The notes: generated from the letters alone by a model not told the origin. Counted from the stretch's first letter, positions 15,952 through 32,066 are shown. The stretch: 42,382 bases of DNA from Bacillota bacterium (GCA_033809435.1 JAPXLS010000001.1:1-42382), one strand, 5' to 3'. Translations and numbers: made by a program.

Positions 15952-16941
15952 CTAGGGCTGGAGCAGGTGGCAGGCGGCGAAGTGGCCGGGCCGGACCTCC
16001 CCGTATGCAGGCGCCACCTCCCTGCAGCGCTTTTCAGCCACGGGGCAGCGGGGGTGGAAACGGCATCCCGCAGGTATATTCACCGGATCGGGTGTTTCTC
16101 CCTTCAGCAGCGACTGATGGGTGATCACCTTGCGCCGCGGTGTGGGAATGACCGACACCAGAGCTTTGGTATAGGGGTGCAGCGGCTCCTTGATCACCGT
16201 ACCGGCGTCGCCCAGCTCCACGATCTTGCCCAGGTACATGATGGCAATCCGGTCCGAGACCAGCCAGGCCAGGGAGAGATCGTGCGTGATGAAGAGGTAG
16301 CTGATCCCCTTTTCGTCGCGCTGGTCCACCATGAGCTTCAGGATATCGGCCCGGATGGACAGGTCGAGCATGGAGACGGGTTCATCGGCCACGATAAACT
16401 TGGGGCCCAGGACCAGCGAACCGGCTATGGCCATTCTCTGGCGCTGCCCGCCGCTGAGCTCGTGGGGGTAGCGCATAAATAGTTCGCGCGGGTTGTGCAG
16501 CCCCGCATCGATGAGGGCCTGCGCCACGCGCTCCTCCTTTTCCTCATGGCTGTGGCAGAGGTTGTTCACCTCCAGGGGCTCGGCAACGGCGTTGAATACC
16601 GTCTGGCGCGGATTCAGCGACTCGTAGGGATCCTGGAATATGATCTGGGCCTCCTGGCGAAAGGAGCGCAGCCTGGTGCGATTGTAGGCGCGGACATCTT
16701 CGCCGTTGTAATCAATCTTCCCCCCTGTTGGCTCCACAAGCCTCAGGATGGCTTTGCCAGTGGTGGTCTTGCCGCTGCCCGATTCCCCGGCCAGGCAGAG
16801 GATTTCGCCCTGGCCCAGCTCGAAGCTGATCCCGTCCACAGCCCGGACCACGGGTGTCTCCCGGCCGAACATGGATTGCAGCAGGCCGGCCCGGACGGCA
16901 AAGTGCACCTCCAGCCGGTCCACACTGATCAGACTATTCAT
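15952..16941 (-). CDS. Opp/Dpp-type ABC transporter ATP-binding protein (OppF-like)
   Basis: Walker [10 protein letters not shown], signature LSGGQRQR, Walker [13 protein letters not shown], and a C-terminal oligo_HPY-type Cys motif (CRFHPRCP). The ATG at 16941 overlaps the upstream stop (ATGA). The longer ORF to 17025 is an extension. Confidence 0.9.
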
Positions 16942-17912
16942 GATCTCACCCGCCTCTCCAGTAGATGGCATGACGCATAGTGCTTTCCGCCCATGTCTAC
17001 CCTGGGCGGCTGCTGCTCCCGGCAAATGGGCAGGGCCTCGGAGCAGCGCTCATGGAAGCGGCATCCCGAAGGCGGCTGAAGCAGGTTCGGCGGGCTGCCC
17101 GGAATGGAGGAAGCCAGGGCGCGATCCCCCTCGATGTCGGGAAAAGCGACCATCAGCGCCCGTGTGTACGGGTGAGCCGGCCTGGTGAAAACCTGTTCCA
17201 CGGGGCCGAGCTCGGCAATCTGGCCGGCATACATCACCGCCACCCGGTCACAGGTTTCGCCGACAACGGAGAGATCGTGGGTGATCAGGATGAGTCCCAT
17301 CTTGATCTCGTCCCGCAGATGCTGCAACAGCTGCAGGACCTGCGCCTGCACCATCACATCAAGGGCGGTGGTGGGCTCGTCTCCGATGACCAGTTTGGGG
17401 TTGCAGGAGATGGCCATGGCGATCATGGCCCGCTGCCGCATCCCACCGCTGAATTCGTGGGGATATTCTTTGACCCGGTCCGGGTCTATCTCCACCTTTT
17501 CAAAGAGGTCCCTGGTGCGCTTCCAGGCCTCCCTGTCGGTCAGCTTTTCATGAATCTTCAGAGCCTCGGCAATCTGCTCGCCAACGGTGCGCACCGGGTT
17601 CAGCGCATTCATGGCCCCCTGAAATATGATGGAGATCTCTTTCCAGCGGATCTGTTTCATCTCTTCTTCCGCGGCCGTAACGATCTCCCTGCCCTCCAGT
17701 TTAATGCTGCCGCCAACAATGGAGGCATTCTCGGGCAAAAGTTTGATCAGGGAAAGGGCCACCGTGGTCTTGCCGGAAGCGGATTCCCCGACGAGGCCCA
17801 AAGCCTCACCTTTACCCAGGCTCAGCGATACGGATTCGCAGGCCCTGACGCGCCCCTGTTTGAGTTTGTAGTACGTGGTCAGATCGTTTACTTCGAGCAG
17901 GGTCACGATCAA
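16938..17912 (-). CDS. Opp/Dpp-type ABC transporter ATP-binding protein (OppD-like)
   Basis: Walker [10 protein letters not shown], signature FSGGMRQR, Walker [13 protein letters not shown], and C-terminal CRFHERC. The track start is TTG at 17912. A GTG at 17906 has better spacing from the AAGGAGG SD. Confidence 0.9.
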
Positions 17913-18814
17913 CGCCTCCTTAATTTCGGATTCAGCACTTCATCCAGGGCATAACCCACAAAGGTGAATCCCAGCACTACCAGCACCACGCAGACACCGG
18001 GCGGTATGAGCCACCACCAGGCCCCGAATGAAACTGCTCCCATGTCAAAGGCGAAATGAAGCATCATCCCCCAGCTGAGCCGGGTGGGATCGCCCATGCC
18101 CAGGAAGCTGAGGGTCGTCTCCGACAGAATGGCCACCGCCGCCACCAGGATGGTATTGGCGAAAATGAGCGGAAAGACATTGGGCAGGATATGATGCACC
18201 ATGATGTGCGCATCTCCGGAGCCGATGGCCCGGGCCCGCTCCACGTAGGGCCTCTCCTTGATGCTCAGCGTCTGGGAGCGGATGATCCGGGCCGTCCCCG
18301 CCCAGCTGGTGATGCCGATGACAAAGATGATGTTCCCCAGGCTGGGCCCCAGGAGGGCGGCCATGACCAGCATCAGGGGCAGCCAGGGTATGACGAGAAA
18401 GATATCGGTAAAACGCATGAGCAGCGTATCCACGTTTTTGCCGTAGTAGCCGGCGGCTATCCCGATGATGGCGCCGATGACCATGGAGATGACCGTTGCG
18501 GCCAGGCCGACAAGAAGCGAAATCCGCGAGCCTATGACCACCCCGGCAAAGACATCCTTGCCCAGGTCGTCGGTGCCCAGCCAGTGCTCGGGCCCCGGCG
18601 GCAGCAGGACCTTTTCAATCCCTTCAATGGCGCTGGTGTAGGTGACGAAGTAAGGCCCGATCAGGGCCATAAGCGCAAAGAAGAGCAAAATGATCAGTCC
18701 CACAATACCCATGGCATTCTCGCGGTAGACCCCCCAGAAGGAGGCCAGGTTTTTCTTCATCAAGGCAAAGCGATCTTTTCTTTTTTTCGTCTGCAACGTA
18801 ACCAGCCCCTCCAT
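17909..18814 (-). CDS. Opp/Dpp-type ABC transporter permease (OppC-like)
   Basis: 301 aa. Multi-TM with the BPD_transp_1 EAA-like region (ARAIGSGDAHIMVHHILPN). The ATG overlaps the OppB-like stop (TGATG). Confidence 0.9.
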   Translation of the reverse strand: MEGLVTLQTKKRKDRFALMKKNLASFWGVYRENAMGIVGLIILLFFALMALIGPYFVTYTSAIEGIEKVLLPPGPEHWLGTDDLGKDVFAGVVIGSRISLLVGLAATVISMVIGAIIGIAAGYYGKNVDTLLMRFTDIFLVIPWLPLMLVMAALLGPSLGNIIFVIGITSWAGTARIIRSQTLSIKERPYVERARAIGSGDAHIMVHHILPNVFPLIFANTILVAAVAILSETTLSFLGMGDPTRLSWGMMLHFAFDMGAVSFGAWWWLIPPGVCVVLVVLGFTFVGYALDEVLNPKLRRR

Positions 18815-19785
18815 CAGGATTTCACCCGGGGATCAAGGTAGCGGTAAAGTAGATCGGCGCACAGGTTGGCGCCGACGACACAGACCGTCACAAAGAGAAA
18901 GATCCCCTGCAAAAGAGGGTAGTCGCGGCCCATCAGCGCCGTGTACATCAATCGACCCAGTCCGGGCCAGGAAAAGACCGTCTCGATCTGGATCGCTCCG
19001 CCCACAATGAAGCCCAGGTTCATCGCAATGAGGGTGACCATGGGCAGCATGGCATTGGGCAGGGCATGCCGCCGCAGCAGGTTCCGGTTGGTGACCCCCT
19101 TGGCCCTGGCCGTGAGCATGTAATCCTCGCTCATCACTTCCAGCAGGGAGTTGCGCATGATCAGAACATATTCTCCAATAAGGATCACTCCAAAGGTAAC
19201 TGTGGGCAAAAACATGTGTTTTAACAGATCGCCCAACTGACCCCAAATGGAAGCAAATTGAACGCCGGGGACTCCCATACCGCAAATGGGGAAAATGCCC
19301 AGGTAAACCGCAAAGAGCATCACCATGAGAATGCCGACCCAGAAAGAGGGCATGGAGTAGAGCACGAGGGACAGGGAAAGCCCTGCTATGTCCAGCTTGC
19401 TGCCCCTTTTCCAGGCGAAGACCACCCCCAGAACAACACCAATGACAATGGAGATCAGGGTTGCCGTGCCAGTGAGAAGCAATGTGGGAGGAAGCTTTTC
19501 CATGATCACATCAAGAACAGGTTTGCGGTAAACAAAAGAGTGCCCCAGGTTACCCATGCACAGGTCGCGCAGGTAATAGCCGAATTGGATAATTTTGGGC
19601 TTGTGCAAACCAAACTGCTCTGAAATTCGTTGCAGCGCCGCCGCCGAGATCCTGGGATTGCGGATGAGTATCCGCACGGGATCCCCGGGCATGATCCTGA
19701 AGAGAAAGAAGTTCAGGATCAGCACAACAAAAGTTGTTAGAAATGTTTGCCCCAACTTGCGCAGGACATATCCCCGCGTTTTCAA
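18814..19785 (-). CDS. Opp/Dpp-type ABC transporter permease (OppB-like)
   Basis: 323 aa. The N-terminus MKTRGYVLRKLGQTFLT..PGDPV is typical of OppB/DppB. EAA-like ARAKGVTNRNLLRRHALPNA. TTG start with a GGAGGTG SD and 8-nt spacer. Confidence 0.9.
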   Translation of the reverse strand: MKTRGYVLRKLGQTFLTTFVVLILNFFLFRIMPGDPVRILIRNPRISAAALQRISEQFGLHKPKIIQFGYYLRDLCMGNLGHSFVYRKPVLDVIMEKLPPTLLLTGTATLISIVIGVVLGVVFAWKRGSKLDIAGLSLSLVLYSMPSFWVGILMVMLFAVYLGIFPICGMGVPGVQFASIWGQLGDLLKHMFLPTVTFGVILIGEYVLIMRNSLLEVMSEDYMLTARAKGVTNRNLLRRHALPNAMLPMVTLIAMNLGFIVGGAIQIETVFSWPGLGRLMYTALMGRDYPLLQGIFLFVTVCVVGANLCADLLYRYLDPRVKS

Positions 19786-19818
19786 GTTGATTGCACCTCC
19801 ATCCGGTCCCTATTCAGG

Positions 19819-19884: not shown

Positions 19885-21519
19885 TTAGTTGACCGGTTCC
19901 AGTTTTTCGTAAGTTTCAACAGTGTTCGTAAAGACCACCGGACCGCCGGCCGGATTCTGGATCCAACCCTTGAAGCGGTCAGTGCGGTAGGCCTGCAGCT
20001 CGGGATCGTACGAGATGATGATGTAGGGGGCATCCTCGTATACCATCCGCTGCAATTCAAAGATGAGCTCCTGCCTTTCTTTATGATCCAGGGTAACCTG
20101 CTGCTTCTTGATCAGTTCGTCATATTCCGGGTTGGAATAGAAACAGTCGTTCCAGGACATGATCTCATCGGTGGTCATGATCTTCAGGATGGAAGAGGGG
20201 TCCACATCCACGAACCAGCCCCAGAGGAAGAGATCAAAATCACCTTCCATAATCTTGTCGGTGAGCATGCCCTCATCAATGCTCTCAACGTTGAGATCAA
20301 TGCCCGCATCCATGAACCATTCTTTCATCAGCTTGGCTGCTTTCTGGCCGTCAGGTGACTCCCCGCGAACAAGCAAGTTGAAGGAAAGTGGGCTGCCGTC
20401 GGCGCTCACCCTTATACCATCGGCCCCAGTTTTGTATCCCGCCTTCTCAAGAATCTGCTTCGACTTTTCAATGTCAAAACCACGGAACTCATTGGCACCA
20501 AGCTCCAGGTGCCAAAAGTCATAGATGGGAGGGCAAAGGGTTGAGCCGACTTCACCGTAACCAAAGTAGGCCATTTCAATTATTTTTTCCCGGTCAATGG
20601 CATGCTCCATGGCTGCACGGATCTTCTGATCAAGGAGCAGCGGATTGCCCTTGGATTCCGGATCATCCCAGACATTGATGGCCATCTGGTTGAAGGAGGG
20701 AGTCATGGCGTCGTGCAGGACAATCCCCTCGGGGGCCTCATCCTGCAGGGCCTTGAACTGGGCGCCCGGGCAGGAGGTGATCACGTCGATATCGCCGCGC
20801 TTGAACGCCTCAACCATGAGATCCGCATTGGCAAAAGTCTGAAAGATTACCTCGTCAATTTTGGGGGCTCCCTTGAAATAATCCTTGTTAACGGCCATCC
20901 TGGTATATTCCCCGGTGACATGCTCGACGACCTGGAAGGGGCCGGTGCCGATGGGTTCTGAATTTTCATAATCGCTGTCTGCCTCTTCGGGATCAACGTT
21001 TTCCCAAATATGCTTCGGTAGAATGGGAACCAGGATGTTCGGCATCCAGGCAACAGGTTCATCAAAGCTAAGCGTCAGGGTATGCTCATCCAGGGCCTGG
21101 ATGTCTTTCATCTCTGCAACATAATCAATAAGGTAACCCATTTCATTGTCGCGAATGTACTCAAAGGTGAACTTGACATCCTCGGCGGTAAAGGGCTCGC
21201 CGTCCTGCCATTTGACCCCTTCATGGAGCTTGAAGGTCCAGGTCAGGCCGTCATCGGTAACCTCCCATTCATCGGCAAGATCGGGAACGGGGTCCATATT
21301 CTCATCCCAGCTGATCAGCTTGTTGTAATTGAGGTTCATCACCTCGTAAGCCTGATAGGACCAGACGGTCATGGGATTCAGTCCCTCTATTTCTCTCAAG
21401 AACCCTATCCGCAAAACATGCCCGGCCGTTTCGGGCTCACTGCATCCAACCAGGCCGGCCAGAAGAGCCAGTGCCATTACCGAAGCCAGTACGATCAACA
21501 AGCGGGTCCGTCTAACCAT
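19885..21519 (-). CDS. ABC transporter substrate-binding lipoprotein, family 5 (peptide/nickel/opine type), copy 1
   Basis: 544 aa. Signal peptide with lipobox LAGLVGC. SBP_bac_5-like core (..ADEWEVTDDGLTWTFKLHEGVKWQDGEPFTAEDVKFT..). AAGGAGGA RBS. Confidence 0.9.
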   Translation of the reverse strand: MVRRTRLLIVLASVMALALLAGLVGCSEPETAGHVLRIGFLREIEGLNPMTVWSYQAYEVMNLNYNKLISWDENMDPVPDLADEWEVTDDGLTWTFKLHEGVKWQDGEPFTAEDVKFTFEYIRDNEMGYLIDYVAEMKDIQALDEHTLTLSFDEPVAWMPNILVPILPKHIWENVDPEEADSDYENSEPIGTGPFQVVEHVTGEYTRMAVNKDYFKGAPKIDEVIFQTFANADLMVEAFKRGDIDVITSCPGAQFKALQDEAPEGIVLHDAMTPSFNQMAINVWDDPESKGNPLLLDQKIRAAMEHAIDREKIIEMAYFGYGEVGSTLCPPIYDFWHLELGANEFRGFDIEKSKQILEKAGYKTGADGIRVSADGSPLSFNLLVRGESPDGQKAAKLMKEWFMDAGIDLNVESIDEGMLTDKIMEGDFDLFLWGWFVDVDPSSILKIMTTDEIMSWNDCFYSNPEYDELIKKQQVTLDHKERQELIFELQRMVYEDAPYIIISYDPELQAYRTDRFKGWIQNPAGGPVVFTNTVETYEKLEPVN

Positions 21520-21660: not shown

Positions 21661-23094
21661 TTAAAGGCTGCCCCGTTCCTGTATGGCCCGGTCCAGGATC
21701 AGATCCAGCTCGCGGCAAAGTTTGTCCTCCAGGTAAACACCCGGATGGGCCGCAGCCAGTTCATCCACTTTTTGGCGGGCCTCCTCCCGGATATCAGCGC
21801 TGCCCCGGGATCTCCATTCCTCGAAGGGCAGCGCATTGCCCAGCTTGCCCTGCCAGAGTTCGCCCTTGCGCATGAAGTCACGGGTATGCTCCTGGGCCAG
21901 GAAGCTGCCTCCCTCCATGACGGATCTGATCACTTCTAATCCGATGATCTCTTTGTTTACAACAAGATCCCCGCCCAGGCGGTGCATGAGCATGCCGTAG
22001 ATCTCGTTGTCTATCAGCATCTCCTCGGCGCTGGCCAGAAGGCCGCCGTTTAAAAGCCCGAAACCGGAGACCATGGTGGCCCGGGCCATGACCGGCGGCA
22101 GGCAGTTGATCGCCCTTTCGTAGCCCGACTGGATATCGGGCAGCGAGGCGCCGGTATCCATGCCGTACACACCGGAGGGTAACCCGTAGTGGCGGGCAAT
22201 TTGCGCCACGCAGGCGCCGGAGAGCCCCAGATCCGGATCCTTGCCGCCGACAAAGCCGGTCCGCATGTTGGCCGCAGCCAGGCGGCAGGTATAGACCAGG
22301 GGACAGTCCCTGTTCACCAGACGGGCCAGGGTCAGGAAAGCAAGCTGCTCCGCATTTTGCTGAACCAGACCGCCGATAAGCGTCAGTGGCGCCGTCAGGC
22401 CTCTGGTGGGGCAGGGCAGCATGGTCAGCGGAAGGCCCAGCCCGGCGCATTCAACAATGGCTGAGGCAATGTCCGCAGGAAAGTTGAGCGGGCTGAGTGG
22501 GGAGATGGAGATGGTGCCCATGGGCTTGCTTTTGAGTCTCTCCATGCCGCCCCTGATGGCGGCGGCCACCTCGATCAGACAGCGGGTCTCCCAGGGATCG
22601 GAGGCGGTGCCGATATCAACGGGCTTCCGCGTATATTTCATGGTATGGACGGCCATGCCGATGTTGGCAACCTCTTCGGGCAGATCCGTGGCCCGCAGGG
22701 TGGGAACGACCAGATCAAGGTAGGGCAGGCTGTCGCTGAGCATGGCATAGAGCTCCATATCCTTGACCTTTGCCTCCCTGACCTCGCCTGTCTCATGATC
22801 CAGCAGAACCGAAACGGAGCCAAAGTTGTGCGAATAGGAGCGCTCTGCCCCGGTCAGGGGTAAAACAATGGATTCGTCGATACCGTACAGAGTCAGGGGA
22901 GCGGGGTCCTGCAGGGCTTTTTCAACGATCTCGGGGGGAAAACAGATGCGCCCTTTCCGCTCGGAGCATCCGGCGCCGAGCAGGATTTCACGGGCGGATT
23001 CTCCTTCGAATATGACACCAATCTGTTCCAGAATCTCAAGGGTTGCCTCATGCATTGCTTCCAGATCTTTCTTGGAAAGCGGTTCAAAGATCAA
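21661..23094 (-). CDS. MttB-superfamily (trimethylamine methyltransferase family) methyltransferase, non-pyrrolysine, copy 1
   Basis: 477 aa, uninterrupted (no in-frame TAG). MttB-family signature along the full length (..KPMGTISISPLSPLNFP.., ..GFGLLNGGLLAS..). TTG start with a GGAGG SD and 7-nt spacer. Confidence 0.85.
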   Translation of the reverse strand: MIFEPLSKKDLEAMHEATLEILEQIGVIFEGESAREILLGAGCSERKGRICFPPEIVEKALQDPAPLTLYGIDESIVLPLTGAERSYSHNFGSVSVLLDHETGEVREAKVKDMELYAMLSDSLPYLDLVVPTLRATDLPEEVANIGMAVHTMKYTRKPVDIGTASDPWETRCLIEVAAAIRGGMERLKSKPMGTISISPLSPLNFPADIASAIVECAGLGLPLTMLPCPTRGLTAPLTLIGGLVQQNAEQLAFLTLARLVNRDCPLVYTCRLAAANMRTGFVGGKDPDLGLSGACVAQIARHYGLPSGVYGMDTGASLPDIQSGYERAINCLPPVMARATMVSGFGLLNGGLLASAEEMLIDNEIYGMLMHRLGGDLVVNKEIIGLEVIRSVMEGGSFLAQEHTRDFMRKGELWQGKLGNALPFEEWRSRGSADIREEARQKVDELAAAHPGVYLEDKLCRELDLILDRAIQERGSL

Positions 23095-23250: not shown

Positions 23251-23901
23251 CTAGGCCAGCCCCAGCATCCCCTTCACAATCTTTACGCCGGAGATGGCGT
23301 CGGGCGCATATCCGTCGGCGCCGACCTTGACGGCCCACTCCTCGGAAAGGGGCGCGCCGCCCACGATCACCTTGACCCGCCCGCGTAAATCCTTTTCCTG
23401 CAGAAGATCGATCACTTTTTTCTGCTCCTGGATGGTGGTGGTCATCAGCGCGGAAATGCCCAGCACGGCGGCTTCCCTTTCCTTGACGGCATCCACAAAT
23501 GCTGCGGCCGGGACATCCACGCCCAGATCGGTTATTTCAAAACCTGCAGATTTCATCATCATGATCACGATATCTTTTCCGATGGAGTGAAGGTCCCCCT
23601 TGACGGTGCCGATCACCATGCGCACAGGCTTGACTCCGCCCTCCCGCTCCTCTTTTTTGATCAGCGGCTCAAGGTAGTCTATGGCTCCGTTCATCGCTTC
23701 GGCTGCCAGCATCATGTCGGGCAGGAAGTACTCGCCCTCCTCGAACTTGTCGCCAACAACATAAAGGCCCGCGGTTAAACCTTCGCTTATGATCAGGGAA
23801 GGTTCGACGCCGGCTTTGTATGCTTCCTCCACGCTCCGCAAAGTCTCCTCTTTTTTGCCTTCGATCACTGCTTCTTTGACCTGCACGAGATATTTATCCA
23901 T
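23251..23901 (-). CDS. corrinoid (cobalamin-binding) methyl-carrier protein, MtgC/MttC-like
   Basis: 217 aa from the ATG at 23901 (GGAGGG SD). B12-binding motif GDLHSIGKDIV (DxHxxG). N-terminal B12-binding_2 helical cap. The ORF extension to 23985 is unlikely to be translated. Confidence 0.9.
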   Translation of the reverse strand: MDKYLVQVKEAVIEGKKEETLRSVEEAYKAGVEPSLIISEGLTAGLYVVGDKFEEGEYFLPDMMLAAEAMNGAIDYLEPLIKKEEREGGVKPVRMVIGTVKGDLHSIGKDIVIMMMKSAGFEITDLGVDVPAAAFVDAVKEREAAVLGISALMTTTIQEQKKVIDLLQEKDLRGRVKVIVGGAPLSEEWAVKVGADGYAPDAISGVKIVKGMLGLA

Positions 23902-24304: not shown

Positions 24305-25945
24305 TTATTTGTCTTTCACCTTCAACTGCTCGTAACTGGCAACGGTCAGCGTATGCACAACGGGACCATTGCCCGCGGGCGTCTGCACCCAGCCGGTAAA
24401 GCGATCCGTGCGATAAGCCTGCAGCGACGGCCTGATGTAGAGGACAATGTAGGGAGCATCCTCGTAGATCATTCTCTGCATCTCGTAGATTATAGCCTGT
24501 CTCTCCTCGCGATCAAGCGCCTGCTGCTGTTTCAGGTAGAGTTCGTCATAGTCCGGGTTGGAGTAGAATGAATCGTTCCAGGACATGATCTCGCCGGTGG
24601 TCATGATCTTCAGGATGGAGGCGGGATCATATTCCACGTACCAGCCCCAGATATAGAGATCCCAGTCCGACTCGTAGATCCGGTCATTGAGCGTGCCCTC
24701 GTCCATGACCTGGATTTCAAGATCCACCCCGATCTCCCGGAACCACTCTTTCATCAGCTTGGCGGTCTTCTGATCATCGGGAGCCGATGAGCGAACCATG
24801 ACGCCAAAGGACAGCTTTTCTCCCTCCGGGCTGAGCCTGATACCGTCGCTCCCCATGCTGTAGCCGGCTTCATCAAGCAGAGCCCTGGCCCTATCCGGAT
24901 CGAAGGAGCGCAGCTCATCATCATCCAGAACTAGCTGCCAGTACGAGTACGTGGGGGTAACCAGCGTTGAACCGGGCTCGCCATATCCGAACAGCGCCAT
25001 TTCTATGATGCGCTCCCGGTCGATGGCCAGCTCAAGGGCCTGACGGATGCGGCGATCCTTGAGCAGCGGATTGCCCTGCGAGGCGGGATCCTGCCACACA
25101 TTGACGGCCAGCTGGCTGAAGCCGGGCGACATTGCGGGCAACGTGCAGATGTCTTCGGGATTTTCCTCTTCCAGGGCCTTGAACTGGGCGCCCGGGACAG
25201 CTGTTATTACATCCAGCTCGTCGCGCTTTAGCGCCTCCACCATCAGGTCGGCGTTGGCATAATTGCGGAAGATGATCTCATCAATCTCCGGCGCGCCCTT
25301 GAAGTAATCCTTGTTGGCAATGAGGCGGGTATACTCCCCGGTGACATGCTCCACCACCTGGAAGGCGCCGGTGCCCACGGGCTCCAGGTTCTGGAAATCA
25401 GAGGAGGCTTCCGCCGGATCTATCTCCCCCCAGATGTGCCGGGGCAGAATGGGACAATAGATCTGGGGCATCCAGGCTACCGGTTCATCAAGTGTTATGC
25501 CTATTGTATACTCATCAACGATTTCTATTTCCTTCATGTCCTTTACCGAATCATAGAAGTAACCCAGCTGGTTATCGCGGACATATTCAAAGGTAAATTT
25601 AACGTCATCAGCTGTAAAGGGTTCTCCATCCTGCCACTTAACTCCTTCTTCAAGATAGAAGGTCCAGTGCAGCCCGTCATCATCCATTTTCCACTCCCTG
25701 GCCAGGCTGCCAATGGGCTCGATATTCTCGTCCCAGGTGATGAGCATATTGTAGTTTAGCTTCATGATCTCGTAAGCCGGCACGGACCAGATCAGAAGGG
25801 GGTTAATCCCCTCAACCTCCCCCGACAGACCCACCCTCAACACATTTTTCTCGCCGCCTTCCGGCGTACATCCAACCAGGCCGGCCGAAAGGCTCAGTAC
25901 CGCCAGCAGAACCAGCAGCGGGAACAAGTATTTTTTTCTATTCAC
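24305..25945 (-). CDS. ABC transporter substrate-binding lipoprotein, family 5 (peptide/nickel/opine type), copy 2
   Basis: 546 aa. GTG start with an AAGGAGA SD. Lipobox SAGLVGC. Alignable with copy 1 along the whole length. Confidence 0.9.
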   Translation of the reverse strand: MNRKKYLFPLLVLLAVLSLSAGLVGCTPEGGEKNVLRVGLSGEVEGINPLLIWSVPAYEIMKLNYNMLITWDENIEPIGSLAREWKMDDDGLHWTFYLEEGVKWQDGEPFTADDVKFTFEYVRDNQLGYFYDSVKDMKEIEIVDEYTIGITLDEPVAWMPQIYCPILPRHIWGEIDPAEASSDFQNLEPVGTGAFQVVEHVTGEYTRLIANKDYFKGAPEIDEIIFRNYANADLMVEALKRDELDVITAVPGAQFKALEEENPEDICTLPAMSPGFSQLAVNVWQDPASQGNPLLKDRRIRQALELAIDRERIIEMALFGYGEPGSTLVTPTYSYWQLVLDDDELRSFDPDRARALLDEAGYSMGSDGIRLSPEGEKLSFGVMVRSSAPDDQKTAKLMKEWFREIGVDLEIQVMDEGTLNDRIYESDWDLYIWGWYVEYDPASILKIMTTGEIMSWNDSFYSNPDYDELYLKQQQALDREERQAIIYEMQRMIYEDAPYIVLYIRPSLQAYRTDRFTGWVQTPAGNGPVVHTLTVASYEQLKVKDK

Positions 25946-26085: not shown

Positions 26086-27519
26086 CTAACCTGCGCTCTC
26101 CGCCTTCAGCTTCTCCAGGTAGAGATCGAGTTCACGGCAGAGTTCCTCCTCCAGGTACGGCCCGGGATAGGCTTTTACAATTTTCCTGATTTTCTCCCTG
26201 GCCGCCTCCCTGATGTTGGGGCATCCCTGGCCATACCAGTCGCCAAAGGGAAGCACATTGCCCAGCTCACCCCGCCAGAGCTCGCCCTTGCGCATAAACT
26301 CGCGGGTATGCTCCTGGGCCAGGAAGCTACCGCCCTCCATGACCGACCTGATCACGCTGACCCCGATGGTCTCCTCATTGACCTCCGTCTCACCGCAGCG
26401 GTGCGTGATCATCCCGTATATTTCATTATCTATCACCAGCTGCTCGGTGCTGGAGAGCGTGCCGCCGTTCAGCAGGCCAAAGCCCGATATGAGCGTGGCC
26501 CGGGCCAGGACAGGCAAAAGGCAGTTCAACGCCCTCTCGTAACCCGATTGAATGTCCGGCAGGACCGCCCCCGTATCCAGGCCGTAAACTGCAGAGGGCA
26601 GATTGTAGTAGCGGGCTACCTGGGCCGCACAGGCGCCGGAATAGCCGCGCACCAGGTTGCTGCCGGAGACAAAACCGGTCCGCATATCGGCGGCGCAGAG
26701 CCTGCTGGCGTAAACAAGGGGGCAGTCCCTGTTCACCAGGCGGGCCAGGGTCAAGAATGCCAGCTGCTCCGCGTTCTGCTGCACAAAACCGCCCACCAGG
26801 GTTACCGGCGCGGTGAGACCGCTGATGGGGCAGGGCAGCATGGTTATGGGCAGGCCCGTTTCGGCCACCTCGATAATTGTATCGCTGATATCCTCGGGAA
26901 AATGCAGCGGGCTCAGCGTGCTGATGGAGATGGTGCCCATGGGTTTGCGCTTGAGCCTGTCCATGCCGCCGCGAACCATGGCGGCAATTTCGATGAGCTT
27001 GCGCGCCTCCCAGGGCGTCGAAGCCAGTCCCATATCCACCGGCTTACGCGTATTGCGCATGGAGTAGATCGACGCCGCCAGGGAGGTGATCGTTTCGGGT
27101 AAATCGGTGGGCCAGATGCTGGGGACAATCTTGTCCAGGTAGGGCAGGTTGTCGCTGACCCAAACATATTCCTCCAGATCGCGGACATTGGCCTCCCTCA
27201 CCTGCCCGCTCTCCGGGTCCAGCAGCACAAAAACGGTGCCAAAATTGTGGGAATATGAGCGCCGGGCCTCGGTCACGGGGTAGACCAGCGACTCATCCAT
27301 GCCGTACACCGTCAGCGGAGCCGGCTCCTTCAAGGCCTCCTCTATCAGCACCTGGGGAAAACAGATCCGCCCCTCCTTCACCTTGCAGCCGGCGCCGAGC
27401 AGGATTTCCCGGGCCCTGTCCCCCTGAAGTTTGATGCCTATGCCGGACAGAATGTCGAGCGACTTTTCATGAATCATCTCCAGATCCTTTTTGGAAAACG
27501 GTTCAAAAGCCAACTTCAT
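26086..27519 (-). CDS. MttB-superfamily methyltransferase, non-pyrrolysine, copy 2
   Basis: 477 aa from the ATG at 27519 (GAAGGAGG SD). The track ORF extends to 27627 without support. About 65% identical to copy 1 over the first ~113 residues aligned by eye. No in-frame TAG. Confidence 0.85.
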   Translation of the reverse strand: MKLAFEPFSKKDLEMIHEKSLDILSGIGIKLQGDRAREILLGAGCKVKEGRICFPQVLIEEALKEPAPLTVYGMDESLVYPVTEARRSYSHNFGTVFVLLDPESGQVREANVRDLEEYVWVSDNLPYLDKIVPSIWPTDLPETITSLAASIYSMRNTRKPVDMGLASTPWEARKLIEIAAMVRGGMDRLKRKPMGTISISTLSPLHFPEDISDTIIEVAETGLPITMLPCPISGLTAPVTLVGGFVQQNAEQLAFLTLARLVNRDCPLVYASRLCAADMRTGFVSGSNLVRGYSGACAAQVARYYNLPSAVYGLDTGAVLPDIQSGYERALNCLLPVLARATLISGFGLLNGGTLSSTEQLVIDNEIYGMITHRCGETEVNEETIGVSVIRSVMEGGSFLAQEHTREFMRKGELWRGELGNVLPFGDWYGQGCPNIREAAREKIRKIVKAYPGPYLEEELCRELDLYLEKLKAESAG

Positions 27520-27627: not shown

Positions 27628-28650
27628 TCACAGCGGCACTATCCGGCCCAGGCCGCACTCCAGGGCGCGGTTGAACATCTCCCTGCCCAGGACTACATCG
27701 CAGACCGCTATGCCTATGTTGCTGCAGACAATGAGCTCATTTTCGCTCTCCCTGCCCGGGGCCAGGCCGGCCAGAACCTCCCCCGTTTCGCAGGTTATCT
27801 GCGGCAGCCCCCCGGGGAAGTAGCCCATCTTGTCAAAAAGTCTATGTTCGTCAATGCTGTCGACAATGTATTTGTCGGCCCGCCTGGGGATGGCGGGATC
27901 CCAGAAGGTGTTTAGATCACAGGGCAAAATCGTTTGCCCCGGCACCACCCAGTCATCCTTGACCACGGCCAGGGGGTCCAGCAAGATAACCGTAGCCGAA
28001 CTCAGAACCTGGCAGTTCTTGACAACCTCTTCAGGGCATCCAGCGCGGACAATTTCCACATCCAGGTGCGGCTGAACTTTATGAATGAGATTATCCATGG
28101 CCTCGGCTCTAACATCATAGACATATATTTTCTGCAGTTTTTCCAGCACGTGCACCATGTACCTGCAATGCTCTATACCCTGCACACCGCAGCCGAACAT
28201 GCCGAATGTCTCGGCCTGGGGATGCAGCGCCTCCGCGGCGAGCACGGTTACCGCCGGCGTGCGCATGGCCGTAACTATTGTAGCATCCATCACCGCAAGG
28301 GGACAACCCGACAGAACATCATTTATGACCAGCAGGCCCGTTGTCTGGGGCAGGTTGAACTTCGTTGGATTGGAAGGGTAGCATTCAATCCATTTCAGAC
28401 CCACGGCCTTATTTCCTGGGACATAAGCGGGCATGGCATGGAAAAATACCTCGCTGAAGGGATGCACCCCCACCTTTGCCGGCATTTCGTATTCTTTTTG
28501 GCCGTGGGCGATGAGGGCCCCGCGAATGAGGGCCAGTATATCCTGTTCGGTCAGGGCTGTTTTCTCCACATCATCTTTGGAGAGGTAGAGCAGCTCCCGG
28601 CCAATTTCAAGTTTACCAGAAATCCAATGGCGATCTGCAGCTAAATCCAT
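27628..28650 (-). CDS. ornithine cyclodeaminase / mu-crystallin family protein
   Basis: About 340 aa. Rossmann motif FGCGVQG. Family-typical ..TAMRTPAVTVLAA.. The ATG at 28650 is preceded by AGGGTGGTAGGA. The track start at 28659 is GTG. Confidence 0.8.
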   Translation of the reverse strand: MDLAADRHWISGKLEIGRELLYLSKDDVEKTALTEQDILALIRGALIAHGQKEYEMPAKVGVHPFSEVFFHAMPAYVPGNKAVGLKWIECYPSNPTKFNLPQTTGLLVINDVLSGCPLAVMDATIVTAMRTPAVTVLAAEALHPQAETFGMFGCGVQGIEHCRYMVHVLEKLQKIYVYDVRAEAMDNLIHKVQPHLDVEIVRAGCPEEVVKNCQVLSSATVILLDPLAVVKDDWVVPGQTILPCDLNTFWDPAIPRRADKYIVDSIDEHRLFDKMGYFPGGLPQITCETGEVLAGLAPGRESENELIVCSNIGIAVCDVVLGREMFNRALECGLGRIVPL

Positions 28651-28785: not shown

Positions 28786-28813
28786 AAAAAACATTGCGGG
28801 GCGCATCCCCGCA
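28786..28813 (-). terminator. intrinsic-terminator-like hairpin inside the 5' leader (candidate attenuator; could also terminate the regulator transcript)
   Basis: The minus strand reads UGCGGGG-AUGCG-CCCCGCA followed by AUG UUUUUU (7-bp GC stem, 5-nt loop, 6 U after a 3-nt spacer). It lies about 100 nt downstream of the -12 element and about 135 nt upstream of the OCD-family start. Confidence 0.5.
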
Positions 28814-28915
28814 GCAGTCCGGTAAGATGGGGCCGGCCGCTGCGGCCTTATCTCCGGAACCCGGCCCCTGCGAAATAACCGGTTCAAGGATGATGGCCCG
28901 CTCGCCCTGTACAAA

Positions 28916-28931
28916 TGCAAGTTTTATGCCA
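28916..28931 (-). promoter_or_regulatory. sigma-54 (-24/-12) promoter
   Basis: The minus strand reads CTGGCATAAAACTTGCATTT. TGGCAT-N5-TTGCA has exactly the consensus GG-to-GC spacing of TGGCAC-N5-TTGCW. It lies 24 nt downstream of the stop of a sigma-54 enhancer-binding protein gene and upstream of the OCD/MttB gene string. Confidence 0.7.
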
Positions 28932-28954
28932 GCAGCGGTGGGCCGAGCCGCATC

Positions 28955-30736
28955 TTATCTGAGATTGTATTTTTTTAAGCGATAATAGAGGCGCTGCCTG
29001 CTCATGCCCAGCGCTGACGCAGCCCTGCTTATATTTCCCCCGGTTTTACGCAAGGCCAGCATAATCTTTGCCTTCTCCTGCTTTTGAATCTCCTCGAAAA
29101 TGCCGCCCCCGGCTTCATCACCCGAAGCCTGTTCAGCAGCCACTCCATTTTTAGCCCTTTCTTCCGTCCCCCGGAGCGATAGGGGCGGCACGCTTTTCCC
29201 ATGCTGCATGCTTGGCAGATGCCTGGGGATGTGCTCGATTTTGATGGGTCCCTCACCGGATTGAACCAGATTCATGGCGCATTCAATGCAATGCGCCAGC
29301 TGCCTGACATTCCCGGGCCAGCTGTAGCGGTGAAACATCTCCATAACCTCTGTGCTGACTCCGGCCACATTTTTCAGCATCGCAACATTGTATTTTTCAA
29401 CAAAATACCCTGTCAATATCTCCAGGTCGTCCAGGCGCTCGCGCAGGGGAGGGATATAGATATAGACAACGGCCAGCCGATAGAAGAGATCATCGCGCAG
29501 CTGCCCCTTTTCAATGGCTATGGAAGGCTCGATGTTGCAGCTGCTGATGATCCTCAAATCTACCGGAATTTTTTCCTTGCCGCCCAGTCTCATGATTTTT
29601 TTCTCTTCCACCACTCTGAGCAGCTTGCTCTGCAGCTCCACGGGCATGGCGTTTATTTCATCCAGAAAGAATGTACCGCCTCCGGCCAGCTCGATCAGCC
29701 CCGCCCTGTCCACGGCCCCTGTAAAGGCCCCCTTGGTGGTCCCGAAGAGAATCCCTTCCAACAGGTTGCCCGGAATGGCGGCGCAGTTGATTGCCAGAAA
29801 GGGCCCGCCGGAACGGCCGCCGGCCGCATGAATGCTCTGGGCAAACATCTCCTTCCCGGTGCCCGTTTCGCCGTAGATCAATACCGTGGAGTCGCTCCTG
29901 GCGCCCGCCTTGCCCCATTCAATGCATTCAAGCAGGCGCTTGTTTTTGCCGATAATCTGCTCAAAGGTATAGCTGGTATCCCTCTTGTTTCCTTTTACCC
30001 TGGCCCTTCCCGGCGCACCGGGGCCTTCATGGAATTGCAGGATCTTTTCCGCCATCTCCTTGAATTTGGGGAAATCCTTGGTTATGGCGGCGGCGCCGAT
30101 CAGTTTGCCCTCCTGGTAAAGGGGAATGGAGCTGCAGACAACGCTCACATATTTCCCCTTGCCGGTAACATAATTTTGATAAACGTCATAAAACGATTTC
30201 CCTTCTTTCAGGGATTGTAAAACCAGCGATGTGCTCTCATCCAGGTTGTATACCTCTTTCCAGCTCTTGCCCATCACCGTATCATCCAGCCCGTCTATCT
30301 CCTTTTGCGAGGGGTTGATGAATATGATGTTGCCGGCGGCATCGGCCACATGAATCCCCTCATCAATTGAATTCAGGATGCTTTCGTACATGTCTTTTGT
30401 CTGCTTCAGCTCGGCATAGCGGTGGCCCAGCTCAATGCTGAAGGGTTTGTCGGAAATAAACAATACTCTGTACCAGCCCTCTCCGGCTTCTGCCGCGGCA
30501 GTTCTGACAATCAGCTCCCTGTTGCTGTTTTTGATCCTGTAATTGCTGATCTCCCTGTCGCAATCAAGCCCCGGCAGGATCACATCCACCGGAAAACCGG
30601 TGATCCCCGCCGCCGGCTGGCCGAGCATGCGCTCCAGTTTCCGGTTGCACTTGACGATAATACCCCGGCTGTCAACCATGACCACTCCATCGTGGATGGA
30701 TTCCAGCAGCGCATCAAGGAGAAACGTTTCATCCAT
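28955..30736 (-). CDS. sigma-54-dependent transcriptional activator with N-terminal PAS domains (PAS-PAS-AAA+-Fis HTH)
   Basis: Walker A GETGTGKE, the sigma-54 contact motif GAFTGA, Walker B FFLDEI, and a C-terminal HTH GGNISRAASALGMSRQRLYYRLKK. The ATG at 30736 is preceded by AAAGGGGA. The track start at 30808 is TTG without an SD. Confidence 0.9.
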   Translation of the reverse strand: MDETFLLDALLESIHDGVVMVDSRGIIVKCNRKLERMLGQPAAGITGFPVDVILPGLDCDREISNYRIKNSNRELIVRTAAAEAGEGWYRVLFISDKPFSIELGHRYAELKQTKDMYESILNSIDEGIHVADAAGNIIFINPSQKEIDGLDDTVMGKSWKEVYNLDESTSLVLQSLKEGKSFYDVYQNYVTGKGKYVSVVCSSIPLYQEGKLIGAAAITKDFPKFKEMAEKILQFHEGPGAPGRARVKGNKRDTSYTFEQIIGKNKRLLECIEWGKAGARSDSTVLIYGETGTGKEMFAQSIHAAGGRSGGPFLAINCAAIPGNLLEGILFGTTKGAFTGAVDRAGLIELAGGGTFFLDEINAMPVELQSKLLRVVEEKKIMRLGGKEKIPVDLRIISSCNIEPSIAIEKGQLRDDLFYRLAVVYIYIPPLRERLDDLEILTGYFVEKYNVAMLKNVAGVSTEVMEMFHRYSWPGNVRQLAHCIECAMNLVQSGEGPIKIEHIPRHLPSMQHGKSVPPLSLRGTEERAKNGVAAEQASGDEAGGGIFEEIQKQEKAKIMLALRKTGGNISRAASALGMSRQRLYYRLKKYNLR

Positions 30737-32063: not shown

Positions 32064-32066
32064 TCG

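What the first reader, a model, noticed from the sequence alone, without database searches (positions are those of the whole stretch)
15952..30736. Sigma-54-controlled MttB/corrinoid demethylation locus coupled to a peptide/opine-type (family 5 SBP, Opp-like) importer and an ornithine-cyclodeaminase-family enzyme
Seen, in minus-strand order: PAS/sigma-54 activator, -24/-12 promoter, OCD/mu-crystallin-family gene, MttB copy 2, family-5 SBP copy 2, corrinoid protein (DxHxxG), MttB copy 1, family-5 SBP copy 1, then OppB-, OppC-, OppD- and OppF-like genes. Both MttB ORFs lack an in-frame TAG and so do not use pyrrolysine. Established: the characterised non-Pyl MttB homologues demethylate quaternary amines (MtgB glycine betaine, MtpB proline betaine, MtcB carnitine). 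They work with a corrinoid protein, a methylcorrinoid:THF methyltransferase and a reductive activase. Family-5 SBPs with Opp-type permeases import peptides, nickel or opines rather than simple betaines. Sigma-54 EBPs commonly control amino-acid catabolism in Clostridia. Inference: the substrate may be a bulkier N-methylated compound such as an N-methylated di- or oligopeptide, an opine-like conjugate or a betaine derivative. The OCD-family enzyme may process the demethylated imino or cyclic amino-acid product. The methylcorrinoid:THF methyltransferase and RamA-type activase are not in this window.
Basis: partly seen in the sequence, partly recalled or inferred. Interest (0 to 1): 0.7.

Follow-up and report, generated by a model that had tools for sequence, protein, structure and literature searches.

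The report
Methylamine-demethylase operon with peptide importer and peptidases
An uncultured anaerobe carries a vitamin-B12-dependent demethylation operon built into a peptide-type importer and intracellular peptidases, which suggests, but does not prove, that it harvests methyl groups from a peptide-like methylated compound rather than from the simple betaines known so far.

Summary
On the minus strand it runs: PAS/sigma-54 activator, a unique -24/-12 promoter, an OCD-family gene, MttB-2, SBP5-2, a corrinoid protein (DxHxxG), MttB-1, SBP5-1, OppBCDF. Both MttBs lack pyrrolysine.

The functional unit is larger than reported. In more than 20 independent contigs from related uncultured Bacillota, the core Corr–MttB–SBP5–OppBCDF is followed directly by a ~1,060-aa gingipain-fold cysteine peptidase. 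An M20D amidohydrolase or other amide hydrolases usually follow that. The window carries two such peptidases and the M20D (7933–15691).

The MttBs form a tight, uncharacterised clade. Identity is at least 54% inside it, at most 41% to anything else, and 27–28% to MtgB and Pyl-MttB. The clade lacks the carboxylate-binding Arg312 that all characterised non-Pyl members keep, and it has an invariant Asp at the pyrrolysine position.

The activator, sigma-54 promoter and OCD-family gene form a separate cassette that is conserved across Firmicutes and fused here. Close relatives carry a guanidino-ureohydrolase instead of SBP5-2.

A peptide-like, cationic N-methylated substrate is the best reading, but it is unproven. 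I rate this a new variant of a known kind.

The parts
28955..30736 (-). Sigma-54 enhancer-binding protein (PAS-PAS-AAA+-HTH_8), PrdR-like
   Evidence: Pfam. GETGTGK and GAFTGA motifs. ATG start at 30736. Best NCBIfam match is PrdR at 376 bits, below the 795-bit cutoff. 87% identical to the EBP of sister contig L067 and 50% to the Peribacillus EBP that sits next to an OCD orthologue.
28916..28931 (-). -24/-12 sigma-54 promoter TGGCATaaaacTTGCA, about 265 nt upstream of the OCD-family start codon
   Evidence: The only match in the window, against 0.11 expected. An identical element lies upstream of OCD in L067, and equivalent elements lie upstream of OCD orthologues in Syntrophaceticus and Peribacillus.
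28795..28813 (-). GC-rich hairpin plus T-run inside the leader, between the promoter and OCD (function unknown)
   Evidence: Found by the terminator scan. The fold of the whole leader is not significant (z = -0.84). No Rfam family matches.
27628..28650 (-). OCD/mu-crystallin-family NAD(P) enzyme, SbnB/AlaDH-like
   Evidence: PF02423 at 154 bits. All NCBIfam equivalogs score below their cutoffs, with the SbnB family best. PDB matches: SbnB 4e-34, AlaDH 1e-31, true OCD 2e-17. Orthologues of 65-76% identity are widespread in Firmicutes.
26086..27519 (-). MttB-2, non-Pyl MttB-superfamily methyltransferase
   Evidence: PF06253 at 247 bits. 65% identical to MttB-1, with Asp at the Pyl position and Ala at the MtgB Arg312 position. 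Orthologues occur in L003, L017, L021, L061 and L067.
24305..25945 (-). Family-5 solute-binding lipoprotein, copy 2
   Evidence: PF00496 at 290 bits. Lipobox LVGC. 63% identical to copy 1. An in-lineage duplicate seen only in the window and L067. It occupies the position where relatives have a ureohydrolase.
23251..23901 (-). Corrinoid protein (B12-binding_2 cap plus B12-binding domain, DxHxxG)
   Evidence: Pfam. TIGR02370 at 209.5 bits, just below the 215.3-bit cutoff. GDLHSIG motif.
21661..23094 (-). MttB-1, non-Pyl MttB-superfamily methyltransferase
   Evidence: PF06253 at 229 bits. Clade of at least 54% identity, with the next hits at 41% or less. Active-site comparison.
19885..21519 (-). 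Family-5 solute-binding lipoprotein, copy 1
   Evidence: PF00496 at 300 bits. Lipobox. Conserved downstream of MttB in nearly every relative with enough sequence; L063 has it upstream.
15952..19785 (-). OppB, OppC, OppD and OppF-like permease and ATPase genes (18814-19785, 17909-18814, 16938-17912, 15952-16941)
   Evidence: BPD_transp_1, OppC_N, and ABC_tran plus oligo_HPY domains. All NCBIfam equivalogs score below their cutoffs. Start and stop codons overlap between neighbouring genes.
12485..15691 (-). Gingipain-fold (C25-like) cysteine peptidase a, about 1,068 aa, with no signal peptide
   Evidence: PF01364 at 30.6 bits, above the 23-bit cutoff. H409 and C440 are invariant across 31 homologues. 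AF2 model: pLDDT 87, pTM 0.91. Foldseek hits Kgp and RgpB with TM 0.50-0.53, probability 1.0. Lies directly downstream of OppF in nearly every relative whose contig extends that far; L063 is the exception.
9231..12449 (-). Gingipain-fold peptidase b (paralogue, 50% identical to a)
   Evidence: Pfam C25 plus CarboxypepD_reg. Identity. A second copy is also present in L059, L060 and L067.
7933..9132 (-). M20D-family amidohydrolase
   Evidence: TIGR01891 at 192 bits, above the 153.75-bit cutoff. Found in the same position in L004/L058, L020, L062 and L065.

Best explanation
This is a catabolic locus for one or two related imported N-methylated compounds that are probably cationic and amide-linked (peptide-like).

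Proposed steps:
1. Two surface lipoprotein SBP5 paralogues feed a single OppBCDF permease.
2. In the cytoplasm, two gingipain-fold cysteine peptidases and an M20D amidohydrolase cut amide bonds to expose or release the methylammonium-bearing moiety.
3. MttB-1 and MttB-2 each transfer one N-methyl group to the Co(I) form of the single shared corrinoid protein.
4. The methyl-Co(III) is unloaded to tetrahydrofolate, or to homocysteine, by a methyltransferase encoded elsewhere. A RamA-type activase is also encoded elsewhere.
5. The remaining carbon skeleton is handled by accessory enzymes that differ between lineages. Close relatives use an agmatinase/guanidinobutyrase-type ureohydrolase. This organism uses an SbnB/AlaDH-like OCD-family dehydrogenase. 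Together with the Arg/Lys specificity of the characterised gingipains, this points to an Arg/ornithine/proline-type skeleton.
6. Expression of at least OCD–MttB2–SBP2 is switched on by a PrdR-like PAS/sigma-54 activator through the -24/-12 promoter.

Shown: gene content, order and conservation; the peptidase fold and catalytic dyad; active-site differences from MtgB; the promoter.

Inferred: substrate class, cytoplasmic location of the peptidases, order of the steps, and extent of the transcript.
For: - Synteny: Corr–MttB–SBP5–OppBCDF–C25-like, followed by M20D, C45/AAT or a second C25-like gene, recurs across the whole clade down to about 62% identity.
- The 54% outlier keeps Corr–SBP5–MttB–Opp plus an amidase.
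- 'Ca. Formimonas warabiya', a different family, has SBP5–OppBCDF–C25-like–MttB–M14 carboxypeptidase–PF02574.
- In relatives, the gaps between OppF and the C25-like gene are 0-30 nt.
- The C25-like protein has an invariant His/Cys dyad, a gingipain fold, and a folded N-terminus with no signal peptide.
- In the MttB clade, MtgB Arg312 is replaced by Gly, Ala or Asp, His348 by Ser and Phe356 by Gly. Tyr97 is retained as Phe, and the Pyl position is an invariant Asp. PMC13080624 states that Arg312 is conserved in all characterised members because their substrates are acidic.
- All three specificity-type components are duplicated around one corrinoid protein and one permease: SBP 63%, MttB 65%, C25 50% identity.
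- The ureohydrolase in relatives exceeds the agmatinase cutoff and is closest to proclavaminate amidinohydrolase and guanidinobutyrase.
- The sigma-54 promoter is unique in the window. -24/-12 elements also precede MttB2 and Corr in relatives.
Against: - No substrate has been identified, and no member of this clade or of the C25-like family has been characterised.
- An Opp-like system can import a plain betaine, as Prb does.
- The SBPs and permeases score almost as well against nickel/opine transporter models as against peptide models, and none reaches a curated cutoff.
- The C-terminal Ig/CnaB-like domains of the C25-like proteins are typical of extracellular proteins, so a cytoplasmic location is uncertain.
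- OCD and the EBP are absent from all but the window and its sister strain. They also occur elsewhere with no MttB.
- A hairpin and a 403-nt gap may split the locus into two transcripts.
- About 960 MttB representative clusters exist at E<=1e-30, nearly all uncharacterised. The absence of Arg312 may simply reflect a different binding mode.
Confidence: 0.45

Rival explanations
1. The substrate is a simple amino-acid betaine or small methylamine, for example proline betaine or N-methylproline. It is imported by a Prb-like Opp system. MttB-1 and MttB-2 remove methyl groups, and the OCD-family enzyme with its PrdR-like activator handles the resulting proline or ornithine. The downstream peptidases belong to general peptide nutrition and are only neighbours.
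For: - Prb is an Opp-like proline-betaine importer.
- The EBP's best family match is the proline sensor PrdR.
- In Peribacillus, the OCD orthologue sits with an amino-acid permease and a YbaK/ProX-type prolyl-tRNA editing domain.
- Orthologues of the OCD gene lie next to a different MttB plus corrinoid protein in Syntrophaceticus and in 7 of 39 metagenome loci.
- All characterised non-Pyl MttBs use small quaternary amines.
Against: - The clade lacks Arg312 and His348, which bind the betaine carboxylate and are retained by MtpB and the other characterised members.
- The C25-like gene is fixed directly downstream of OppF across lineages that have diverged to 62% MttB identity, and it recurs next to an MttB in a different family.
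- OCD and the EBP are not part of the conserved operon.
Confidence: 0.25
2. Two independent modules lie side by side. One is an EBP–sigma-54–OCD amino-acid catabolism cassette. The other is a separately transcribed Corr–MttB1–SBP1–Opp–peptidase operon. Under this reading, OCD and sigma-54 control are not part of the demethylation pathway as a whole. This rival concerns regulation and OCD only, and it is compatible with either substrate model.
For: - The cassette occurs without any MttB.
- Relatives of the operon lack an adjacent EBP or OCD.
- In the window, a 403-nt gap with a hairpin and T-run lies before Corr, and there is a sigma-70-like match at 24136-24165.
- The internal -24/-12 element present in L067 is missing here.
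Against: - MttB2 and SBP2 follow OCD with gaps of only 108 and 140 nt and no promoter match.
- Relatives have their own -24/-12 elements in front of MttB2 and Corr, so the operon family is sigma-54-dependent anyway.
- OCD orthologues are linked to MttB genes repeatedly.
Confidence: 0.3
3. The Opp-like system imports a metal or metallophore (Ni or Co, Nik/Cnt-type) that serves corrinoid or metallo-hydrolase cofactors. It does not import the methyl donor.
For: - OppB scores best against the Opp2B nickel permease model (279 bits).
- The SBPs hit NikA at 164-191 bits and CntA at 140-153 bits.
- The neighbouring enzymes need Co, Ni, Mn or Zn.
Against: - All of these scores fall below the curated cutoffs, and the SBPs score higher against the Opp4A peptide model (231-233 bits).
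- The best PDB relatives of the SBP are peptide binders.
- The SBP is duplicated in parallel with MttB and the peptidase.
- The tight operon with several amide hydrolases has no obvious role in metal uptake.
Confidence: 0.05

Closest known systems
MtgB/MtgC-type quaternary-amine:corrinoid methyltransferase systems (MtgB, MtpB, MtcB, MtyB, MthB; non-Pyl MttB superfamily)
   Same: - A full-length PF06253 methyltransferase lies next to a DxHxxG corrinoid protein.
- No pyrrolysine is used.
- An aromatic residue is retained at the MtgB Tyr97 position.
- MT2 and the activase are encoded separately, as is often the case.
   Different: - Only 27% identical to MtgB.
- Arg312, His348 and Phe356 are all replaced, and the Pyl position is an invariant Asp.
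- The transporter is Opp-type, not BCCT or ProU-type.
- The operon carries gingipain-fold and M20D hydrolases.
- Two MttB paralogues share one corrinoid protein.
Oligopeptide/dipeptide ABC importers (Opp/Dpp/App) and the Opp-like proline-betaine importer Prb of S. meliloti
   Same: - SBP_bac_5 lipoproteins.
- OppB- and OppC-type permeases.
- Two ATPases with the oligo_HPY tail.
   Different: - No curated equivalog cutoff is reached.
- Two SBPs serve one permease.
- The system is embedded in a methyltransferase operon.
Gingipains (Peptidase C25: RgpB, Kgp)
   Same: - The catalytic-domain fold matches (TM about 0.5, probability 1.0).
- The His/Cys dyad is conserved, with spacing of 31 residues here against 33 in gingipains.
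- An Ig-like domain follows the catalytic domain.
   Different: - There is no signal peptide, propeptide or T9SS C-terminal domain.
- The host is a Bacillota member.
- The protein is about 1,060 aa with a long N-terminal alpha/beta region and CnaB/CarboxypepD_reg-like tail domains.
- The sequence match is weak and partial (30.6 bits).
PrdR/OrdR/RocR-type PAS sigma-54 activators of amino-acid catabolism in Firmicutes (PMC6615313)
   Same: - One-component architecture: PAS–AAA+–HTH_8.
- A GAFTGA motif.
- A -24/-12 promoter directly in front of an amino-acid-type enzyme gene.
   Different: - Scores 376 bits against the PrdR cutoff of 795.
- The target is an OCD-family gene followed by MttB and SBP5 genes, a combination not listed among the reconstructed clostridial regulons.
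SbnB / archaeal alanine dehydrogenase branch of the OCD/mu-crystallin family
   Same: - The best sequence matches lie in this branch.
- The Rossmann-type NAD(P) fold family is the same.
   Different: - The match is below every equivalog cutoff.
- The protein belongs to its own widespread 340-aa orthologue group (65-76% identity) of unknown substrate.

Membership tests
MttB superfamily (PF06253), non-pyrrolysine branch | Full-length match to the MTTB profile above the gathering score | tested here: met
   229 and 247 bits against a cutoff of 25, covering profile positions about 30-498 of 500.
MttB superfamily (PF06253), non-pyrrolysine branch | No in-frame UAG; a sense codon at the pyrrolysine position | tested here: met
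   No internal stops. The codon aligned to Pyl of 7xcl is GAT (Asp).
MttB superfamily (PF06253), non-pyrrolysine branch | [quoted passage not shown] | not testable with these tools
   Requires an enzyme assay.
Characterised acidic-quaternary-amine demethylases (MtgB, MtpB, MtcB, MtyB, MthB) | Arg312 (MtgB numbering), which salt-bridges the substrate's acid group and is conserved in all members of known function (PMC13080624) | tested here: not met
   Gly in MttB-1, Ala in MttB-2, and Gly, Ala or Asp across 18 clade members; never Arg or Lys.
Characterised acidic-quaternary-amine demethylases (MtgB, MtpB, MtcB, MtyB, MthB) | Close sequence relationship to a characterised enzyme | tested here: not met
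   27% identity to MtgB. No protein above 41% identity exists outside the uncultured-MAG clade in either the 5.8-billion or the 1.84-billion-sequence search. The sequences of the E. limosum enzymes themselves were not available for direct alignment.
MtgB (glycine betaine) | The Tyr97/Phe356 aromatic pair plus Arg312/His348 | tested here: not met
   Only the Tyr97 position is kept, as Phe. The other three are Gly/Ala, Ser and Gly.
Methyltransferase-cognate corrinoid protein (TIGR02370 / MtgC-like) | B12-binding_2 cap plus B12-binding domain with DxHxxG | tested here: met
   Pfam 76 and 90 bits. GDLHSIG motif. TIGR02370 at 209.5 bits, just under the 215.3-bit cutoff.
Opp/Dpp-type peptide ABC importer | SBP_bac_5 binding protein, two BPD_transp_1 permeases (one with OppC_N), and two ATPases with oligo_HPY | tested here: met
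Opp/Dpp-type peptide ABC importer | Reaches a curated equivalog score for a peptide, nickel or opine system | tested here: not met
   All NCBIfam hits are below their cutoffs, for example Opp4A at 233 bits against 650 and NikA at 191 against 393.
Ornithine cyclodeaminase (true OCD) | Equivalog-level similarity to characterised OCD | tested here: not met
   PRK07589 at 79 bits against a cutoff of 350. PDB 1x7d scores only 2e-17, while SbnB scores 4e-34 and AlaDH 1e-31.
Sigma-54-dependent regulation | An activator with an AAA+ Sigma54_activat domain, the GAFTGA loop and a DNA-binding HTH | tested here: met
Sigma-54-dependent regulation | A -24 GG / -12 GC promoter with correct spacing upstream of the target gene | tested here: met
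   TGGCATaaaacTTGCA is unique in the window and conserved in front of OCD orthologues.
Sigma-54-dependent regulation | rpoN present in the genome; activator-dependent transcription of the whole locus | not testable with these tools
   Only a 42-kb contig is available, and there are no expression data.
Peptidase family C25 (gingipain) | Caspase-hemoglobinase-type catalytic fold with a His/Cys dyad | tested here: met
   H409 and C440 are invariant in 31 sequences. Foldseek hits Kgp and RgpB with TM 0.50-0.53. PF01364 scores 30.6 bits against a cutoff of 23, but covers only the C-terminal half of the profile.
Peptidase family C25 (gingipain) | Secreted enzyme with signal peptide, propeptide and T9SS C-terminal domain; Arg- or Lys-specific S1 pocket | tested here: inconclusive
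   No signal peptide: residues 5-26 model as a strand and helix at pLDDT above 85. An invariant Asp362 lies 47 residues before the catalytic His, which from recalled numbering (not checked here) is similar to the Asp163–His211 spacing in RgpB. No residue-level alignment to a gingipain could be obtained.

The most novel reading that the evidence does not exclude
This MttB clade demethylates methylammonium or methylguanidinium groups carried by peptides or by amino acids released from them. Candidate substrates are trimethyllysine, methylated arginine or ornithine derivatives, and N-terminally methylated peptides. The gingipain-like and M20D hydrolases would liberate the methylated residue after Opp-type import. 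That would make this the first corrinoid-dependent pathway that harvests methyl groups from peptide-bound or protein-derived methylated residues, and it would feed necromass methyl groups into anaerobic C1 metabolism.
Probability: 0.2. Interest if true: 0.85.

Novelty: new variant of a known kind. Interest (0 to 1): 0.6.

Why it matters
Only about six substrates are known for the MttB superfamily, and all are small quaternary amines. The exhaustive search here found about 960 representative clusters at E<=1e-30.

This clade is fixed in an operon with a peptide-type importer and three kinds of amide hydrolase, and it lacks the acid-binding arginine. That makes it a concrete, testable lead to a new substrate class for anaerobic methylotrophy. 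It bears on which methylated nitrogen compounds feed acetogenesis and, indirectly, methanogenesis in digesters, soda-lake sediments and similar habitats.

The locus also defines an uncharacterised, apparently intracellular family of gingipain-fold peptidases in Bacillota. It further shows a sigma-54/PAS-activator/OCD cassette that has been recruited to MttB operons at least twice.

Tried and rejected
- Rfam scan of the whole window for a riboswitch or leader RNA: no hit. The fold of the 256-nt leader is not significant.
- Search for a remnant of the relatives' ureohydrolase, C45, M14 or PF02574 genes in the window: none found.
- Shared upstream activator sites across the sigma-54 promoters by k-mer counting: only coding-sequence conservation and one weak 9-mer turned up, so this was not pursued.
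- Sequence-level alignment of the C25-like protein to gingipains, using both profile and phmmer against the PDB: no match. The S1-pocket assignment therefore remains an inference.
- Proteomics supplement of the 'Ca. Formimonas warabiya' paper, searched for expression of DCMF_11260 and its neighbours: the locus tags are not used there.
- Literature search linking MttB to trimethyllysine, dimethylarginine, N-methylproline, hercynine or oligopeptides: nothing relevant.
- A metformin- or creatine-type guanidino substrate: considered because the relatives' ureohydrolase is distantly related to metformin hydrolase. Rejected as a main model because the operon is old and diversified and centres on peptidases.
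- Metal uptake: considered and ranked low (see the rival explanations).
- Promoter and terminator scans: counts did not exceed shuffled controls, so individual sigma-70 or terminator sites are not relied on.

Full report
**Observation.**
- EBP, 28955-30736: two PAS domains, Sigma54_activat, HTH_8, GETGTGK and GAFTGA. The ATG at 30736 is the start.
- Sigma-54 promoter TGGCATaaaacTTGCA, 28916-28931: the only match to TGGCAYN5TTGCW in the window, against 0.11 expected.
- OCD/mu-crystallin-family gene, 27628-28650.
- MttB-2, 26086-27519.
- SBP_bac_5 copy 2, 24305-25945.
- Corrinoid protein, 23251-23901, with GDLHSIG.
- MttB-1, 21661-23094.
- SBP_bac_5 copy 1, 19885-21519.
- OppB, OppC, OppD and OppF, 15952-19785.

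Both MttBs are uninterrupted and have GAT (Asp) at the pyrrolysine position. TAG is an ordinary stop codon in this locus. No pterin-binding methyltransferase or RamA-type activase was found in the window ORFs scanned.

**The unit is larger than reported.**
A search with MttB-1 found a compact clade of about 57 clusters at 54% identity or more. All come from uncultured Bacillota MAGs labelled 'Syntrophomonadaceae' or Dethiobacteria, from digesters, soda-lake sediments and similar sites. Identity then drops sharply to 41% or less. The exhaustive 1.84-billion-representative search collapses the clade to one representative: 766 bits, with the next hit at 377 bits. About 960 MttB representative clusters score E<=1e-30.

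Twenty-one genome loci belong to the clade. tblastn and precomputed Pfam calls show a fixed order: Corr–MttB–SBP5–OppB–OppC–OppD–OppF. A ~1,050-1,070-aa 'Peptidase_C25' protein follows directly. After that come an M20 amidohydrolase, a C45/AAT hydrolase or a second C25-like gene.

The 54% outlier keeps Corr–SBP5–MttB–OppBC–(PocR/AraC)–Corr–OppDF plus an amidase. 'Ca. Formimonas warabiya' (Peptococcaceae) has Amidohydro_2–SBP5–OppBCDF–C25-like–MttB–M14 carboxypeptidase–PF02574 homocysteine methyltransferase. Its MttB is 33-35% identical to those in the window.

In the window, the equivalents are C25a (12485-15691), C25b (9231-12449) and M20D (7933-9132; TIGR01891 above its cutoff).

**The C25-like proteins.**
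- Across 31 homologues, G408-H409-G410 and A439-C440 are invariant.
- An AlphaFold2 model is confident (pLDDT 87, pTM 0.91).
- Foldseek matches its catalytic part to gingipains Kgp and RgpB (TM 0.50-0.53, probability 1.0). The C-terminal part matches pilin/CnaB-type Ig domains.
- The N-terminus is a well-modelled strand and helix, not a signal peptide. The proteins are therefore probably intracellular, although the Ig-like tail is unusual for a cytoplasmic protein.
- An invariant Asp362 lies 47 residues before the catalytic His. From recalled numbering, that resembles the S1 Asp of RgpB. No residue-level alignment could be obtained, so Arg/Lys specificity is an inference only.

**The MttB active site.**
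PMC13080624 defines the glycine-betaine site of MtgB as Tyr97 and Phe356 (cation-pi) plus Arg312 and His348 (carboxylate). It states that Arg312 is conserved in all members of known function because their substrates are acidic.

A MAFFT alignment of 18 clade members with MtgB (9yce) and Pyl-MttB (7xcl) gives these replacements:

| Position (MtgB numbering) | Residue in this clade |
|---|---|
| Tyr97 | Phe, invariant |
| Arg312 | Gly, Ala or Asp; never basic |
| His348 | Ser |
| Phe356 | Gly |
| Pyl position of MttB | Asp, invariant |

Identity is 27% to MtgB and 28% to Pyl-MttB. MttB-1 and MttB-2 are 65% identical. The pocket also argues against an acidic betaine bound in the canonical way.

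**Lineage-specific parts.**
- Close relatives (L003, L021, L061) have the order MttB2–ureohydrolase–Corr–MttB1.
- The ureohydrolase exceeds the agmatinase model's cutoff. Its closest solved relatives are proclavaminate amidinohydrolase, guanidinobutyrase and agmatinase.
- The window and its sister contig L067 carry SBP5-2 in that position instead. They add OCD and the EBP upstream. No ureohydrolase remnant is present in the window.
- NJ trees show that MttB1/MttB2 and SBP1/SBP2 are in-lineage duplications. C25a and C25b are 50% identical.
- All three specificity-type components are thus duplicated around one corrinoid protein and one permease. This suggests two related substrates.

**The EBP–promoter–OCD cassette.**
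- The OCD-family protein belongs to a widespread 340-aa orthologue group at 65-76% identity across Firmicutes.
- It is closer to SbnB and archaeal AlaDH than to a true OCD.
- In Peribacillus the arrangement is -24/-12 promoter–OCD–amino-acid permease–YbaK-type domain–EBP. That EBP is 50% identical to the window's.
- In Syntrophaceticus, one EBP is surrounded by four -24/-12 promoters. They front OCD, Corr–MttB–2-oxoacid:ferredoxin oxidoreductase, AlaDH and a Liv-type transporter. The MttB there is only 27% identical to those in the window.
- A metagenome scan with an OCD profile gave 39 loci of at least 5 kb. Seven carry that Syntrophaceticus-type MttB next to OCD and eight carry an EBP. Others sit among housekeeping genes.
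- The EBP's best family match is the proline sensor PrdR, below its cutoff.

The cassette is therefore an independent amino-acid-type module that has been joined to MttB operons repeatedly. OCD involvement in this pathway is plausible but not established.

**Regulation.**
Relaxed -24/-12 elements (TGGTAY-N5-TTGC) lie upstream of MttB2 and of Corr in L001, L003, L012, L017, L021, L059-61, L067 and L068. About three matches would be expected by chance in the 559 kb scanned. This sub-lineage of the operon family therefore looks sigma-54-dependent even where no EBP is adjacent.

The window lacks the element upstream of Corr. In its place is a 403-nt gap containing a weak hairpin plus T-run. A second hairpin plus T-run lies in the leader between the promoter and OCD. 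Whether one transcript covers the whole locus cannot be decided from sequence.

**Mechanism and rivals.**
The best-supported model, at confidence about 0.45, has six steps.
1. SBP5/Opp imports a peptide-like, probably cationic, N-methylated compound.
2. Gingipain-fold and M20D enzymes cleave amide bonds.
3. MttB-1 and MttB-2 transfer methyl groups to the shared corrinoid protein.
4. Methyl acceptors and the activase encoded elsewhere complete the transfer. The modular logic follows PMC12478193.
5. Lineage-specific enzymes (ureohydrolase or OCD-family) process the skeleton.
6. A sigma-54 activator switches the locus on.

The main rival, at about 0.25, is a simple betaine imported by a Prb-like Opp system, with the peptidases being incidental neighbours. 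An orthogonal rival, at about 0.3, is that the OCD/EBP cassette and the MttB/Opp/peptidase operon are functionally separate. Metal uptake is unlikely (about 0.05). Distant MttBs in other phyla also sit near Opp-like genes, so an Opp neighbour alone is not distinctive.

**Novelty.**
Uncharacterised 'MtxB' clades are common (PMC10653893), and no paper in the library describes this one. The distinctive feature is the conserved fusion of a corrinoid methyltransferase pair with a peptide-type importer and several amide hydrolases, together with the altered pocket. I rate it a new variant of a known kind, interest 0.6. The most novel reading not excluded is demethylation of peptide-derived methylated residues (probability about 0.2).

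Noticed in passing
window 31062-41292 (-): A methylthioribose-salvage-like cluster. It contains MtnK (TIGR01767, 411 bits against a cutoff of 275), MtnA (447 bits against 279), a DeoR regulator, a split transketolase, a RuBisCO-like protein (MtnW-like, below its cutoff) and a sugar-type ABC importer. In sister contig L067, MtnA lies directly next to the EBP, so about 8 kb has been inserted here or deleted there.
   Followed up: partly
window 124-4549: Mobile-element genes at the low end of the contig: IS21 IstB, a TniB-like AAA protein, a Mu/rve-type transposase and DUF6431. A MatE efflux gene (6537-7916) lies directly downstream of M20D.
   Followed up: no
window 28795-28813 (-) and 23959-23975 (-): Two hairpin-plus-T-run elements. 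One lies inside the leader between the sigma-54 promoter and OCD. The other lies about 60 nt before the Corr start, at about the position where sister contig L067 carries a -24/-12 element (TGGTATaaaagTTGCA). They could be attenuators or terminators, or chance matches, since the scan counts equal the shuffled controls.
   Followed up: partly
L069-L071 (Syntrophaceticus sp. metagenome contigs): One PAS/sigma-54 activator is surrounded by four -24/-12 promoters. They drive an OCD orthologue, a Corr–MttB–2-oxoacid:ferredoxin oxidoreductase operon, an alanine dehydrogenase and a Liv-type ABC importer. This is a second, unrelated MttB clade coupled to the same OCD/EBP cassette.
   Followed up: partly
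L066 ('Ca. Formimonas warabiya' CP017634, 2398317-2421469): A variant operon: Amidohydro_2–SBP5–OppBCDF–C25-like (DCMF_11260)–MttB–M14 carboxypeptidase–PF02574 homocysteine-methyltransferase domain. There is no adjacent corrinoid protein. This hints that the methyl group may go to methionine there.
   Followed up: partly
window 8000-18000: G+C is 61-64% across C25a, C25b and OppD/OppF, against 50-55% in most of the rest of the contig.
   Followed up: no
L024 (Thermoplasmata) and L039 (Acidimicrobiales): Distant MttB homologues (25-33% identity) also have Opp/Dpp-like genes within a few kb. In L039 these include an SBP5. Pairing of an Opp-type transporter with an MttB is therefore not confined to this clade.
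   Followed up: no
P0057 (976-bp ENA contig): A gene call that fuses an Arginase-family domain with an MTTB domain (92% identical to MttB-1). It is probably a frameshift or assembly artefact, but it was the first hint of the ureohydrolase neighbour.
   Followed up: partly
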